A DNA stretch of 64,000 bases, taken from assembly GCF_056712565.1 (NCBI RefSeq), contig NZ_CM160072.1; one strand, 5' to 3'. Under the pieces are notes generated by a model. The model did no database searches and was not told the origin of the DNA. It saw only the letters and a program-made list of their open reading frames with translations. Numbering within the stretch: the stretch's first letter is position 1; the number at the start of each line of letters is the position of its first letter. A program made the position numbers and the translations under genes. Positions 2,566 through 4,748 of this stretch are shown here, one piece after another.

Positions 2566-2823
2566 TTAACGCGGAGAAACCCCGTAATGTGCAATGCAGC
2601 GCCAGACACCATCCTGCTGGCAATAAATTGACTCAGTCAGCCCAGGGATCACCCATTGTATTTCCTCGCCGGGGGGACAGGTCAGCCAAATGCATAACCC
2701 GCAGCCGCCGCGTAAATCACGGGGAATATCGCTGACGCGAAAAGTCATGCCCGCTGCCTGCAACGCTTTGCGGGTTTGTATGACGCCGACCGTGGAGTGA
2801 AATAAAAATAAAAACTCTTTCAT
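2566..2823 (-). CDS. DUF3343-like small protein (putative Se/S carrier-like), coupled to yjiL
   Basis: 85-aa ORF whose start overlaps the yjiL stop by 4 nt (2820-2823); sequence [54 protein letters not shown] resembles small proteins that accompany 2-hydroxyacyl-CoA dehydratase-type genes. Confidence 0.5.
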
Positions 2824-3593
2824 CGGCGTGTCCTCACTCGTTGACCAATTACCGCCGCGCCAATTGCGCCAGCAAATTGCGCATCAGGATGGGTATTTAC
2901 CGGCATTCGCAGGTGAGATTCCAGCATCCGGGCAAACTTCTGGCAATGACTAACGCCACCAGTAAACAGAATCGGCGCTTCACAGGAGAGACGAGCAATG
3001 AAATTGGCACTCCTCCGCGCCATCGCGTTAATCACTCCGGCGAGAATCGCTTCTGGCGCGACGCCCGCTGAGCGCAGGCTGATCGCTTCTGATTCAGCAA
3101 ACACTGTGCACATACTCGTGATGGCGTGCGGCGTGACATTTTCGGTAATGCTGTCGAGTTGCTCGACGCTGGTGCCAAGCGTGCGCGAGATCACCTCCAG
3201 GAAACGCCCGGTGCCCGCCGCGCATTTGTCATTCATCAGGAAATCGCACAGGTTACCGTCATCATCAAGCTGAATCACTTTGCTGTCCTGACCACCGATG
3301 TCGATTACCGCGCGCGTTGCTGGCGCAAGAAACCGTGCGCCCAGCCCGTGACAGGAGATTTCCGTTACCTGTTTATCGGCAAAATCCACCAGTTGCCGCC
3401 CGTAGCCGGTGAGCGTCAGAAACGGCGTTGTCTCTAACCCTTCGCGCAGAGTTTCCCAGGCTTCAGTAATTGCTGTTGCCGGGCGAAAGGGGGTTGGAAC
3501 GAGGAAACGGCGCGTAATCACGCCGTCTGCCAGTAAGATCCCTTTGGTGGCGGTTGAGCCGGAATCAATGCCAATCGAATATGCCACTGCCAC
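2820..3593 (-). CDS. yjiL: BadF/BadG/BcrA/BcrD-type ATPase, activator-like component of 2-hydroxyacyl-CoA dehydratase-type enzymes
   Basis: 257-aa ORF; acetate/sugar-kinase-fold motifs (IGIDSGSTATKG ... DIGGQDSK); synteny with yjiM. Confidence 0.88.
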   Translation of the reverse strand: MAVAYSIGIDSGSTATKGILLADGVITRRFLVPTPFRPATAITEAWETLREGLETTPFLTLTGYGRQLVDFADKQVTEISCHGLGARFLAPATRAVIDIGGQDSKVIQLDDDGNLCDFLMNDKCAAGTGRFLEVISRTLGTSVEQLDSITENVTPHAITSMCTVFAESEAISLRSAGVAPEAILAGVINAMARRSANFIARLSCEAPILFTGGVSHCQKFARMLESHLRMPVNTHPDAQFAGAIGAAVIGQRVRTRR

Positions 3594-3596
3594 TCC

Positions 3597-4748
3597 TTAC
3601 AGCATCTCAATAAAGGCCGCGACACGGGTACTGAGCTGCCCGACATCCGAGGTGGAGTAGTCTGTTTCAATAGCGATATAAGGAATGTTGTGCTGCTGGC
3701 GCACATGACGTTTAATCGCCAGCGATTCCACCGCGTAGGTATGGCACGCCTGCAAAATCACATCAACTACGCCATCGACCTGATATTCCTCCACCATCTG
3801 GCTGAGCATTTTCAGGCGCTGATCGTTCGGCGAAACACAGGAGCAGCCAATCGCCAGATATTTATCCGCCAGCGCGTCGTAGACATCGCCCGTTTCTGCC
3901 ACGCATTGCTCGGTCGCTTTCGCCCCGGTGCAGTTTTCATAACCGACAACCCAGCCGCCATTCTCTTCAATCGCGCGCACCACTTTTTCTGCTGCGCCGC
4001 CAATCGGGCAGCCGGTGATTAAAATGCGCGGACGCGGGTCCAGTCGCTGGCCTTCTTCCCACTGCTGACGAACGCGGGCGGTCATTGCATCCAGTTCATT
4101 GATCAACGCCTCTTTATCGAACCGGAAGGTTGCGCCGTAAACCACTTTCAGAATGTCGCTGCCGCTAAGCGCCGGAGGATTTAACTGCCCAAGATGATAA
4201 AAGTTGGCCAGTGCGCGACGTTCGCGGTTTTTCAGCGCAATGGCATCGCGCAGAGCATCTTCGCTAATCTCGTGCCCAAAACGTTCTTCTACCGTTTTTT
4301 GCAAGCGCAGCATCTCGGCTTTCCATAATGCACGCGAGGCATCGTCCTTAACGCTGTTTGGCAACTGCATCACATGAACGGGCTTAAATTCTGCCATGTA
4401 TTCATACATTTTCTTTTTGCCGTCGCAGGTGGTTTCACCGACCACCAGATCAGAAAAGTAGAAGTAGGGGCATTTATCGGTTTTGCCGAAGCCGTAGCTG
4501 CTTTTAATCAGCGGGCAGAGGTTGCGCGGCAGATCTTTCTCGGCTTCTTCAATGGTTTCATCAGAGGTGGAACATAGCGAAACCACAACCGCACCGGCTG
4601 CCATCGGGATCTCTTGCGGCATAAAGGTGCAGTAGGTGCCAACCAGCGGAATGCCGCGCTCCTTGAGATCCATGACGGTGAGAAAGCCTTTCTGGCGAGC
4701 TTCAGAGAACTGATCGAAAATGGCGGGTAGATCGGTGACAAGTGACAT
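3597..4748 (-). CDS. yjiM: 2-hydroxyacyl-CoA dehydratase D-component-like protein
   Basis: ORF 3597..4769; start set at the Met of MSLVTDLPAIF to match the remembered K-12 length (383 aa); cysteine-rich HgdB/BcrC-like sequence. Confidence 0.85.
   Translation of the reverse strand: MSLVTDLPAIFDQFSEARQKGFLTVMDLKERGIPLVGTYCTFMPQEIPMAAGAVVVSLCSTSDETIEEAEKDLPRNLCPLIKSSYGFGKTDKCPYFYFSDLVVGETTCDGKKKMYEYMAEFKPVHVMQLPNSVKDDASRALWKAEMLRLQKTVEERFGHEISEDALRDAIALKNRERRALANFYHLGQLNPPALSGSDILKVVYGATFRFDKEALINELDAMTARVRQQWEEGQRLDPRPRILITGCPIGGAAEKVVRAIEENGGWVVGYENCTGAKATEQCVAETGDVYDALADKYLAIGCSCVSPNDQRLKMLSQMVEEYQVDGVVDVILQACHTYAVESLAIKRHVRQQHNIPYIAIETDYSTSDVGQLSTRVAAFIEML

What the first reader, a model, noticed from the sequence alone, without database searches (positions are those of the whole stretch)
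2566..4748. Unannotated-looking DUF3343-like small ORF completes a three-gene 2-hydroxyacyl-CoA dehydratase-like cluster (yjiM-yjiL-small ORF)
An 85-aa ORF (2566-2823) starts 4 nt inside the yjiL stop, implying translational coupling. Its sequence ([51 protein letters not shown]) resembles the DUF3343 family that accompanies HgdC-like activators and HgdAB-like components. Accepting it also argues that yjiK starts at the GTG at 2501 rather than at the ATG at 2612 given by the ORF track. The substrate of this oxygen-sensitive-looking enzyme set in E. coli is unknown.
Basis: partly seen in the sequence, partly recalled or inferred. Interest (0 to 1): 0.4.

Follow-up and report, generated by a model that had tools for sequence, protein, structure and literature searches.

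The report
Known small gene ytiA, third in yjiM-yjiL operon
The small ORF is real, but it is already annotated as the E. coli gene ytiA (b4715), a DUF3343 "putative Se/S carrier" protein that follows an uncharacterised ATP-driven iron-sulfur reductase pair (YjiM/YjiL); comparative genomics points, tentatively, to selenium or sulfur handling.

Summary
Window 2566-2823 (-) encodes an 85-aa protein whose ATG overlaps the yjiL stop (ATGA). It passes Pfam PF11823 (DUF3343/Se_S_carrier; 48.9 bits, cut-off 25), is under purifying selection (dN/dS about 0.23) and keeps its frame across Enterobacterales and Aeromonas.

It is not unannotated. MG1655 RefSeq lists it as ytiA (b4715), and PGAP names it in every sampled row of 5385 matching E. 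coli genomes.

The cluster label needs correcting. YjiM is a double-cubane-cluster reductase (NF040772, 532 bits; PDB 6ENO, E=6e-75), not a two-subunit 2-hydroxyacyl-CoA dehydratase. YjiL is its ATPase partner.

In 28 of 28 complete gammaproteobacterial loci the DUF3343 gene overlaps the activase stop. In 51 Bacillota loci with YjiM orthologues it never does. However, 9-10 of those loci carry selenium genes nearby. In Clostridium intestinale the pair sits inside a SelD-YedF-DUF3343-YqeC-MocA-YqeB / xanthine-dehydrogenase operon.

My working mechanism (about 0.35) is that YtiA Cys41 carries Se or S to or from the YjiL-energised YjiM reductase.

Novelty: already known. Interest: modest.

The parts
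2566..2823 (-). ytiA (b4715) CDS, 85 aa, DUF3343 / PF11823 'putative Se/S carrier' protein
   Evidence: ORF. Pfam 48.9 bits, E=4.4e-13. RefSeq annotation. dN/dS about 0.23. AF2 model with pLDDT 88.8 and a beta-alpha-beta-beta-alpha-beta-beta fold.
2692..2730 (-). Conserved loop motif [13 protein letters not shown] (residues 32-44). Cys41 (codon 2703-2701) is the conserved cysteine; Cys44 (2694-2692) is conserved only in Enterobacteriaceae.
   Evidence: Translation. Invariant columns in 19 enterobacterial homologues. C41 is kept and C44 lost in Hafnia, Morganella and Aeromonas. C41 is kept in 29 of the 30 distant DUF3343 proteins retrieved; the exception, P0170, has ECE. The motif lies between beta2 and beta3 of the model.
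2820..2835 (-). Translational-coupling junction: GAGGA Shine-Dalgarno (2835-2831), 7-nt spacer, and the ytiA ATG overlapping the yjiL TGA (ATGA, 2823-2820)
   Evidence: Sequence. Overlaps of 4 nt (24 loci), 1 nt (3 loci) and 11 nt (1 locus) across 28 gammaproteobacterial loci.
2820..3587 (-). yjiL, ATPase 'activase'/reductase partner (BcrAD_BadFG, TIGR00241)
   Evidence: Pfam 258 bits. TIGR00241 364 bits against cut-off 125. PDB matches: 4EHT 7e-52, 1HUX 4e-51, and the DCCP reductase 7YYL_E 3e-45. RefSeq coordinates.
3597..4748 (-). yjiM, double-cubane-cluster ([8Fe-9S]) anaerobic reductase, class II DCCP
   Evidence: NF040772 532 bits against cut-off 350. PDB 6ENO/7YYL E=5.9e-75. Cysteines 40, 59, 78, 93, 108, 273, 302, 304 and 335 align with cysteines of the C. 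hydrogenoformans DCCP. Described as a DCCP in PMC7317905.
1641..2501 (-). yjiK (SdiA-regulated domain protein), a downstream neighbour that is not part of the conserved module. Start codon GTG at 2501; SD AAGGGA at 2507-2512.
   Evidence: RefSeq coordinates. Pfam PF06977. Start-region comparison with O55:H7. The genes downstream of ytiA differ in Klebsiella, Yokenella and locus L007.

Best explanation
Shown (about 0.97): window 2566-2823 (-) is the already annotated E. coli gene ytiA. It encodes an 85-aa DUF3343/PF11823 protein. It is the last gene of a yjiM-yjiL-ytiA module, with its start overlapping the yjiL stop. YjiM is a double-cubane-cluster reductase and YjiL is its ATP-hydrolysing electron-energising partner. 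The pair is not a 2-hydroxyacyl-CoA dehydratase.

Inferred (about 0.35): YtiA is a small ferredoxin-like/PII-like alpha+beta protein that exposes one conserved cysteine (Cys41) on the loop between beta2 and beta3. I propose this cysteine carries a chalcogen atom as a persulfide or perselenide. YtiA would either present that atom to the ATP-driven, very-low-potential YjiL->YjiM reductase for reduction (for example to selenide for SelD), or accept the reduced product. On this reading the module is an accessory of selenium (or sulfur) metabolism under anaerobiosis.
For: Identity:
- ORF, ATGA overlap and SD.
- PF11823 above the gathering score.
- RefSeq names and coordinates.
- Purifying selection.
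- The trio recurs with varying flanks in Yokenella, Klebsiella and locus L007. It is present in 28 of 28 complete gammaproteobacterial loci from the genome scan.

DCCP assignment: NF040772 532 bits; 6ENO E=6e-75 against 1.7e-13 for a dehydratase beta subunit; PMC7317905.

Carrier idea:
- Cys41 is invariant in all trio-type orthologues, while Cys44 is not. It is kept in 29 of 30 distant family members.
- Distant DUF3343 genes sit next to YedE-like transporters, TusA/DsrE (YedF-like), YqeC and a class-V aminotransferase. This agrees with Lin et al. 2015, PMC5322559.

Selenium link of the enzyme pair:
- In Clostridium intestinale (L045), a YjiM orthologue (68% identity) and its activase lie in one co-directional array. 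The array also holds xanthine-dehydrogenase-family subunit genes, SelD, YedF, DUF3343, YqeC, MocA/YgfJ, YqeB and an XdhC-family gene.
- A Bacillota MAG (L069) has YqeC-YqeB-YedF-SelD-DCCP-activase-MocA-like gene-XDH-family subunits.
- Two Enterococcus loci have DCCP-activase-Se-XDH-YgfJ-SclA.
- Dorea and Faecalicatena loci have a unit of SclA-like gene, DCCP paralogue, DUF3343 and activase.
- Haft 2022 reports that 955 of 970 NF040772 proteins occur in SelD-containing assemblies.

Anaerobic use: yjiM is listed among genes induced under oxygen limitation in O157:H7.
Against: - No experiment on YtiA, YjiL or YjiM function was found.
- About 80% of the Bacillota YjiM-type loci show no selenium gene within 6 kb, and none has DUF3343 directly after the activase. 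YtiA is therefore not an obligatory cis partner.
- SelD co-occurrence may simply reflect an anaerobic lifestyle.
- Adjacency to xanthine dehydrogenase genes could equally point to an organic, purine-derived substrate.
- The chemical rationale, that Se(0)/HSe- needs very low-potential electrons, rests on my own recollection and not on a tool result.
Confidence: 0.8

Rival explanations
1. YtiA is a maturation factor for the cofactor rather than a substrate carrier. Its Cys41 would deliver the ninth, bridging sulfide (or, as Haft speculated, a selenium atom) that joins the two [4Fe-4S] cubanes of YjiM.
For: The DUF3343 family has Se/S-trafficking contexts. The gene is tightly coupled to the DCCP/activase pair in Gammaproteobacteria. 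Haft raises a Se-bridged cluster as a formal possibility.
Against: Most Bacillota YjiM orthologues (58-69% identical) have no adjacent DUF3343. The C. hydrogenoformans DCCP structure is described with an [8Fe-9S] cluster, and no such helper is mentioned in the passages read.
Confidence: 0.2
2. The module acts on an organic substrate, such as a CoA ester or a purine- or amino-acid-derived compound. YtiA would then have a thiol-based or adaptor role unrelated to selenium, and the Se-gene neighbourhoods would reflect shared pathway context (for example purine fermentation) rather than Se chemistry.
For: YjiM lacks the channel-closing N-terminal helices of the class I DCCP, so a larger substrate was proposed (PMC7317905). 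Several linked loci contain xanthine dehydrogenase genes. Most loci have no Se genes.
Against: No catabolic gene family is conserved next to the pair across the 80 loci. In L045 and L069 the pair lies directly beside SelD rather than beside catabolic genes. The Dorea-type unit contains a SclA-like lyase and DUF3343 but no XDH.
Confidence: 0.25
3. YtiA is a PII-like regulatory or adaptor protein. Its beta2-beta3 loop, in the position of the PII T-loop, would dock onto YjiL or YjiM to gate ATP-coupled electron transfer.
For: Foldseek's best PDB matches are PII/GlnK proteins (TM about 0.5, probability up to 0.99). The conserved motif lies in the equivalent loop.
Against: No match is significant (E>=0.02). 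There is no PII sequence signature or Pfam hit. The conserved residue is a cysteine, and the family's other contexts are chalcogen-trafficking genes.
Confidence: 0.1
4. The ORF is a chance reading frame, or an annotation carried over by homology without being expressed.
For: I could retrieve no ribosome-profiling or proteomic evidence for YtiA.
Against: The Pfam hit is well above cut-off. The frame, length and start overlap are conserved from Escherichia to Aeromonas. dN/dS is about 0.23 with saturated dS. The fold prediction is confident.
Confidence: 0.02

Closest known systems
E. coli K-12 ytiA (b4715, YP_009518833.1; WP_000657675.1)
   Same: Same gene at the same position between yjiL and yjiK, with the same 258-nt CDS coordinates. 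E. coli B strain ATCC 11303, whose ytiA region matches the window at 100% identity, carries the same protein accession WP_000657675.1 as K-12 GM4792.
   Different: Nothing of substance. The window strain differs from K-12 elsewhere: it has no mdtM between yjiN and the rpn gene.
DUF3343 / PF11823 'putative Se/S carrier protein-like' family (Lin et al. 2015, PMC5322559)
   Same: Size of 80-100 aa, a single highly conserved cysteine, and a Pfam score above the gathering cut-off.
   Different: The YtiA subgroup is fixed behind a DCCP/activase pair. The members Lin et al. described sit beside YedF and Sec lyase. Enterobacteriaceae add a second cysteine (CGLC) that the wider family does not require.
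Double-cubane cluster protein system DCCP/DCCP-R of Carboxydothermus hydrogenoformans (PDB 6ENO, 7YYL; PMC7317905)
   Same: YjiM is 39% identical with all aligned cysteines conserved, and YjiL matches the DCCP reductase. Both systems are a two-gene ATP-dependent reductase.
   Different: YjiM lacks the N-terminal channel-closing extension and is placed in class II. The passages read describe the C. hydrogenoformans system as a two-gene pair and mention no DUF3343 partner.
2-hydroxyacyl-CoA dehydratases with HgdC-type activators (HgdAB/HgdC, HadBC/HadI)
   Same: Shared HGD-D fold family and a homologous ATPase activator.
   Different: Those enzymes need two different subunits; here there is one HGD-D gene. 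The HadB and HadC equivalog scores are far below cut-off.
Selenium-cofactor (Se-dependent molybdenum hydroxylase) gene clusters: SelD, YedF, SclA, YqeB, YqeC, YgfJ (Haft & Self 2008, PMC2276186; PMC2432076)
   Same: In some Bacillota, YjiM/YjiL orthologues and DUF3343 lie inside or beside these clusters.
   Different: In E. coli the trio stands alone, in a region with no such genes immediately around it. The open-access papers I read on this trait do not list DCCP or the activase as members.

Membership tests
DUF3343 / PF11823 (Se_S_carrier) | Scores above the Pfam gathering threshold | tested here: met
   48.9 bits against 25, E=4.4e-13, residues 4-59 on profile positions 2-57 of 69.
DUF3343 / PF11823 (Se_S_carrier) | Small stand-alone protein (80-100 aa) with one highly conserved cysteine | tested here: met
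   85 aa. Cys41 is invariant in 19 enterobacterial and 28 gammaproteobacterial orthologues and is kept in 29 of 30 distant members. The criterion comes from PMC5322559.
DUF3343 / PF11823 (Se_S_carrier) | Actually binds or transfers Se or S | not testable with these tools
   The family name rests on gene neighbourhood only. No solved structure or biochemical study was found.
Double-cubane cluster protein (NF040772) - applies to YjiM | Scores above the NCBIfam equivalog cut-off | tested here: met
   532.2 bits against 350.
Double-cubane cluster protein (NF040772) - applies to YjiM | Conserved multi-cysteine motif that ligates the [8Fe-9S] cluster | tested here: met
   C40, C59, C78, C108, C273, C302/C304 and C335 align with cysteines of 6ENO and are invariant in alignment A2. 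The spacing is X18-X18-X29-X164-X28/30-X32/30, within a few residues of the published motif. A literal regex of the published spacing did not match.
Double-cubane cluster protein (NF040772) - applies to YjiM | Adjacent ATP-dependent reductase (archerase) gene | tested here: met
   yjiL starts 9 nt downstream of the yjiM stop. TIGR00241 364 bits against 125; 7YYL_E E=3.4e-45.
2-hydroxyacyl-CoA dehydratase (HgdAB / HadBC type) | Two different HGD-D subunits (alpha and beta) encoded together | tested here: not met
   Only one HGD-D gene lies in the cluster and its surroundings.
2-hydroxyacyl-CoA dehydratase (HgdAB / HadBC type) | Matches the curated dehydratase subunit models | tested here: not met
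   HadC 95.3 bits against 700; HadB 20.2 bits against 750.
Translationally coupled operon member | Start codon overlapping the upstream stop, conserved across taxa | tested here: met
   ATGA in the window. 28 of 28 loci show overlap: 24 with 4 nt, 3 with 1 nt and 1 with 11 nt. Actual coupling of translation is inferred, not measured.
TusA/SirA-type sulfur carrier | TusA Pfam domain and fold with the N-terminal CPxP cysteine motif | tested here: not met
PII / GlnB-like signal proteins | Significant structural or sequence match | tested here: inconclusive
   Foldseek TM about 0.5, but E>=0.02 and 10-20% identity. No Pfam PII hit. This is resemblance only.

The most novel reading that the evidence does not exclude
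YjiM-YjiL-YtiA is a missing component of bacterial selenium metabolism. It would be an ATP-driven, double-cubane-cluster reductase that reduces carrier-bound selenium on YtiA Cys41, loaded for example by a Sec lyase, to selenide for SelD or for the labile Se cofactor of molybdenum hydroxylases. That would explain why YjiM orthologues sit inside SelD/YedF/DUF3343/YqeB/YqeC operons in some Bacillota, and why double-cubane proteins almost always co-occur with SelD.
Probability: 0.3. Interest if true: 0.7.

Novelty: already known. Interest (0 to 1): 0.33.

Why it matters
As a sequence feature this is ordinary. The ORF is an annotated gene of a named Pfam family, and the better yjiK start is already in RefSeq.

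What remains open is function. YjiM, YjiL and YtiA are all uncharacterised, and no physiological substrate is known for any double-cubane-cluster reductase.

Three lines of evidence converge here:
- a fixed DCCP-activase-DUF3343 trio in Gammaproteobacteria;
- selenium-linked contexts of DUF3343 elsewhere;
- YjiM/YjiL orthologues embedded in SelD/YqeB/YqeC operons.

Together they turn that open question into a specific hypothesis that can be tested genetically in E. coli. It touches the Se-cofactor trait, which a 2024 paper calls the least understood route of selenium incorporation (PMC11448449).

Tried and rejected
- **Promoter and terminator scan, 1500-6400:** 1 promoter-like and 7 terminator-like sites, none above the number expected from shuffles. 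None lies between ytiA and yjiK or upstream of yjiM.
- **FNR-box search (TTGATN4ATCAA, up to 2 mismatches):** one 2-mismatch site at 4857-4870, upstream of yjiM. The window total is 47 against about 34 expected, so the site is not usable evidence.
- **Rfam scan of 1500-6400:** nothing.
- **Profile search of YtiA against PDB sequences:** only insignificant ferredoxin-motif matches (E=0.29 and 7.1). I rejected these as evidence for Fe-S binding, because only one cysteine is conserved family-wide.
- **Apparent DUF3343 fusion proteins in the representative search (P0125, P0126, P0140, P0144, P0154, P0188 and others):** on reading them, these are frameshifted assemblies of yjiL-ytiA or unrelated repeat proteins, not real fusions.
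- **Word-index search with YjiM:** it listed only orthologues at 85% identity or more, so it was useless for diversity. I used a genome scan with a four-sequence alignment instead.
- **Literal regex for the published 7-Cys spacing:** failed. Alignment showed the cysteines are conserved with slightly different spacing.
- **Search for a conserved neighbour family across the 80 loci:** none beyond the activase, plus DUF3343 in Gammaproteobacteria.
- **Literature searches for ytiA, b4715 and ytiA+yjiK:** no E. coli study was identified. By their titles, most of the 20 listed ytiA hits concern zinc regulation or ribosomal protein L31, consistent with my recollection that B. subtilis ytiA is an L31 paralogue.
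Full report

The window is an E. coli chromosome segment with the gene order kptA-yjiJ-yjiK-ytiA-yjiL-yjiM-yjiN. Its ATG (2823-2821) overlaps the yjiL TGA (2822-2820) as ATGA. A GAGGA Shine-Dalgarno lies 7 nt upstream, at 2835-2831.

The protein matches Pfam PF11823. This family was formerly DUF3343 and is now called 'Se_S_carrier'. The match has E=4.4e-13 and 48.9 bits against a gathering score of 25.

Homologues of 78-91 aa were found in Citrobacter, Klebsiella, Raoultella, Kosakonia, Atlantibacter, Phytobacter and Yokenella. 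They share an invariant DIPRxLRxGCGLC core and have a variable C-terminal third.

Nei-Gojobori dN/dS against Klebsiella and Yokenella is 0.24 and 0.23, with dS saturated. The neighbours are more constrained: yjiL 0.07-0.09 and yjiM 0.06. The ORF is therefore a real, selected coding sequence.

**2. Is it unannotated?**

No. NC_000913.3 (MG1655) lists it as ytiA, b4715, YP_009518833.1, 'uncharacterized protein YtiA'. A megablast of 2400-2950 found the region in 5385 of 5426 complete E. coli genomes. Every one of the 30 sampled rows carries 'ytiA' or an unnamed gene, with the product 'DUF3343 domain-containing protein' or 'putative Se/S carrier protein'.

The same records annotate:
- yjiK as 861 nt, which equals window 1641-2501 and so starts at GTG 2501;
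- yjiL as 2820-3587;
- yjiM as 3597-4748.

**3. The yjiK start.**

The longest-ORF rule gives an ATG at 2612. That start would run 47 nt into ytiA, and an AGG sits directly against the ATG with no spacer. The GTG at 2501 has AAGGGA followed by a 5-nt spacer.

In O55:H7 an espX6 island separates ytiA from the yjiK homologue. There the homologue starts at a TTG behind TAAGGAG. Protein similarity to the window begins only at the KRI(S/T)...FFVQSC signal-peptide-like segment.

**4. What the neighbours are.**

YjiM passes the NCBIfam equivalog NF040772, 'double-cubane-cluster-containing anaerobic reductase', with 532 bits against a cut-off of 350. It fails the 2-hydroxyisocaproyl-CoA dehydratase equivalogs: HadC 95 bits against 700, and HadB 20 bits against 750.

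Its best solved relative is the C. hydrogenoformans double-cubane cluster protein (6ENO/7YYL, E=5.9e-75). A dehydratase beta subunit scores only E=1.7e-13. All cysteines that align with DCCP cysteines are conserved.

YjiL passes TIGR00241 and matches HgdC/HadI-type activators and the DCCP reductase chain 7YYL_E. There is only one HGD-D gene here, so the two-subunit dehydratase architecture is absent.

Jeoung, Martins and Dobbek already describe YjiM/YjiL as a probable class II DCCP system of unknown substrate (PMC7317905).

**5. YtiA itself.**

AlphaFold2 run on the 19-sequence alignment gives a confident model (pLDDT 88.8, pTM 0.79). The topology is beta-alpha-beta-beta-alpha-beta-beta. The conserved motif lies in the loop between beta2 and beta3.

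A profile search of 1.84 billion representative proteins gave 123 hits. Of the 30 distant members I read, 29 keep the motif 'PxPR/P-x-(L/I/V)-x-x-x-C-G'. The exception is P0170, which has ECE. The second cysteine is only sometimes present.

Within the trio-type orthologues, Hafnia, Morganella and Aeromonas have CGLS, CGLG and CGLA. Only Cys41 is therefore essential. This argues against a CxxC redox pair or a monomeric Fe-S site, and for single-cysteine chemistry.

**6. Is the three-gene cluster a conserved unit?**

Look-ups of YtiA homologues show HGD-D, then BcrAD_BadFG, then Se_S_carrier. The flanks are different in Yokenella, Klebsiella pneumoniae and an unidentified contig, L007.

I then scanned one genome per GTDB species with an alignment of four DCCPs. 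I annotated the best 80 loci, which are 58-97% identical to YjiM, with my own HMMs.

| Group | Loci | Result |
|---|---|---|
| Gammaproteobacteria (Escherichia, Citrobacter, Klebsiella, Kluyvera, Kosakonia, Cedecea, Hafnia, Morganella, Aeromonas and others) | 29 | 28 have the trio; the 29th (L016) is cut by the contig end 119 nt after the activase |
| Bacillota | 51 | 30 have the activase directly downstream on the same strand; none has a DUF3343 gene directly after it |

In the 28 complete gammaproteobacterial loci the DUF3343 start overlaps the activase stop by 4 nt (24 loci), 1 nt (3 loci) or 11 nt (1 locus).

Clustering all neighbours found no other family conserved across the set. The trio is therefore a gammaproteobacterial elaboration of a widespread two-gene system.

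**7. The selenium lead.**

Distant DUF3343 genes sit beside:
- YedE-like Sulf_transp genes (L011, L013);
- a class-V aminotransferase and a LysR regulator (L011);
- TusA or TusA-DsrE (YedF-like) genes (L010, L097);
- YqeC (L096).

This matches the gene-neighbourhood argument of Lin et al. 2015. Their STRING table for Slackia also lists an activase and HGD subunits among DUF3343's partners.

From the enzyme side, 9-10 of the 51 Bacillota loci carry selenium markers within 6 kb. All gene identities below were confirmed above NCBIfam cut-offs unless noted.

- **Clostridium intestinale (L045).** One co-directional array with minimal gaps reads: XDH-family Mo, FeS and FAD subunit genes; YjiM orthologue; activase; SelD (TIGR00476, 402 bits); YedF (TIGR03527, 237); DUF3343 (PF11823, 80); YqeC (TIGR03172, 204); MocA/YgfJ (TIGR03310, 196); YqeB (TIGR03309, 385); XdhC-family gene. 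The FAD-subunit and XdhC-family genes score below the curated cut-offs, and the Mo and FeS subunits were identified by similarity only.
- **A Bacillota MAG (L069).** YqeC-YqeB-YedF-SelD-DCCP-activase-MocA-like gene-XDH-family subunits. YqeC, YqeB, YedF and SelD pass their NCBIfam cut-offs; the MocA-like and XDH-family genes are named from weaker phmmer similarity only.
- **Two Enterococcus species (L065, L076).** DCCP-activase-selenium-dependent XDH (TIGR03311, 1535 bits)-YgfJ-SclA (NF040779, 715 bits).
- **Acetobacterium (L066).** DCCP-activase-SclA-like gene, with YedF and DUF3343 adjacent.
- **Dorea and Faecalicatena (L079, L084, L091, L093).** A second unit of SclA-like gene, DCCP paralogue (NF040772, 512 bits), DUF3343 and activase lies next to the YjiM-type gene.

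As a rough estimate of my own, SelD would lie immediately next to the pair in 2 of 51 genomes by chance with an expectation of about 0.03.

Haft's 2022 preprint independently reports that 955 of 970 NF040772 proteins occur in SelD-containing assemblies. It mentions YjiM but draws no conclusion about DUF3343.

The open-access papers I read on the Se-cofactor trait do not mention DCCP, the activase or DUF3343 as members. A three-term search found only Lin 2015.

**8. Mechanism.**

*Shown.* The gene exists, belongs to PF11823, is positioned for coupled translation with yjiL, and forms a conserved module with a DCCP-type reductase and its ATPase.

*Inferred (about 0.35).* YtiA carries S or Se on Cys41 and exchanges it with the YjiL-energised YjiM cluster. 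One version is reduction of a carrier perselenide to selenide. An ATP-coupled, very-low-potential reductase makes chemical sense for Se(0)/HSe-, but that point rests on my own knowledge and no tool tested it.

*Rivals.*
- Cluster maturation, meaning delivery of the bridging sulfide (0.2).
- An organic substrate, with YtiA unrelated to Se (0.25).
- A PII-like adaptor (0.1).
- A spurious ORF (0.02).

*Against the Se reading.* Four-fifths of the Bacillota loci have no Se gene nearby. SelD co-occurrence is confounded with anaerobiosis. XDH adjacency could point to purine chemistry.

*Expression context.* yjiM is listed among genes induced under oxygen limitation in O157:H7, and the YjiM protein has been detected by proteomics.

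**9. Verdict.**

But the gene is already annotated, its family is already named, and the yjiK start is already corrected in RefSeq. The enzyme is a double-cubane reductase system, not a dehydratase.

Novelty is 'already known', and interest is modest. The useful by-product is a concrete, testable link between the yjiM-yjiL-ytiA module and selenium (or sulfur) metabolism.

Noticed in passing
window 6181-6328 (between yjiN, 4864-6144, and the rpn-family ORF, 6329-7249): This strain has no mdtM (or ytiE) between yjiN and the Rpn-family gene, unlike K-12 and E. coli B. The same junction occurs at 100% identity in APEC O1 and others, and covers at least 80% of the query in 681 genomes. The Rpn ORF is intact here (306 aa), whereas rpnD is a pseudogene in MG1655.
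   Followed up: partly
L002 (E. coli O55:H7 DEC5A) 285-4975; corresponds to window ~2500-3587: In the O55:H7 lineage a T3SS effector gene, espX6, lies between yjiK and ytiA. yjiL is flagged as a pseudogene. ytiA has a divergent 88-aa allele: megablast homology breaks at window 2613. A 21-nt copy of the ytiA 3' end (CCGCGTTAAGAATTCATTAAG) remains next to yjiK.
   Followed up: partly
L045 2390-12870 (Clostridium intestinale DSM 6191); L069 2369-12276 (Bacillota MAG): YjiM/YjiL orthologues are embedded in complete selenium-cofactor / xanthine-dehydrogenase-family operons (SelD, YedF, DUF3343, YqeC, MocA/YgfJ, YqeB, XdhC-family gene). The selenium-trait papers I could read do not mention this association.
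   Followed up: yes
L079 2095-5801, L084, L091, L093 (Faecalicatena / Dorea): A second, longer DCCP paralogue (about 447 aa) forms a unit of SclA-like gene, DCCP, DUF3343 and activase on the strand opposite the YjiM-type gene. The YjiM-type gene has no activase of its own there. The gene order differs from the gammaproteobacterial trio: DUF3343 lies between the DCCP and the activase.
   Followed up: partly
L005 3739-3978, L003 3059-3298, L019 5097-5456 and 6 more gammaproteobacterial loci: A small DUF2164 (PF09932) gene lies upstream of yjiM in Klebsiella, Kluyvera, Superficieibacter and others. It is immediately upstream in most of these loci but about 780 nt away, with another small gene between, in Yokenella. 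It is absent from the E. coli window.
   Followed up: no
window 3587-3599: yjiL has two candidate GTG starts, at 3593 and 3587. The yjiM stop overlaps an AAGGAG that is well spaced only for 3587, the start RefSeq uses.
   Followed up: partly
window 4857-4870: A weak FNR-like site (TGGATTTCTATAAA, 2 mismatches) lies about 110 nt upstream of the yjiM start. Such matches occur at close to chance frequency in the window, although yjiM is reported as induced under oxygen limitation in O157:H7.
   Followed up: partly
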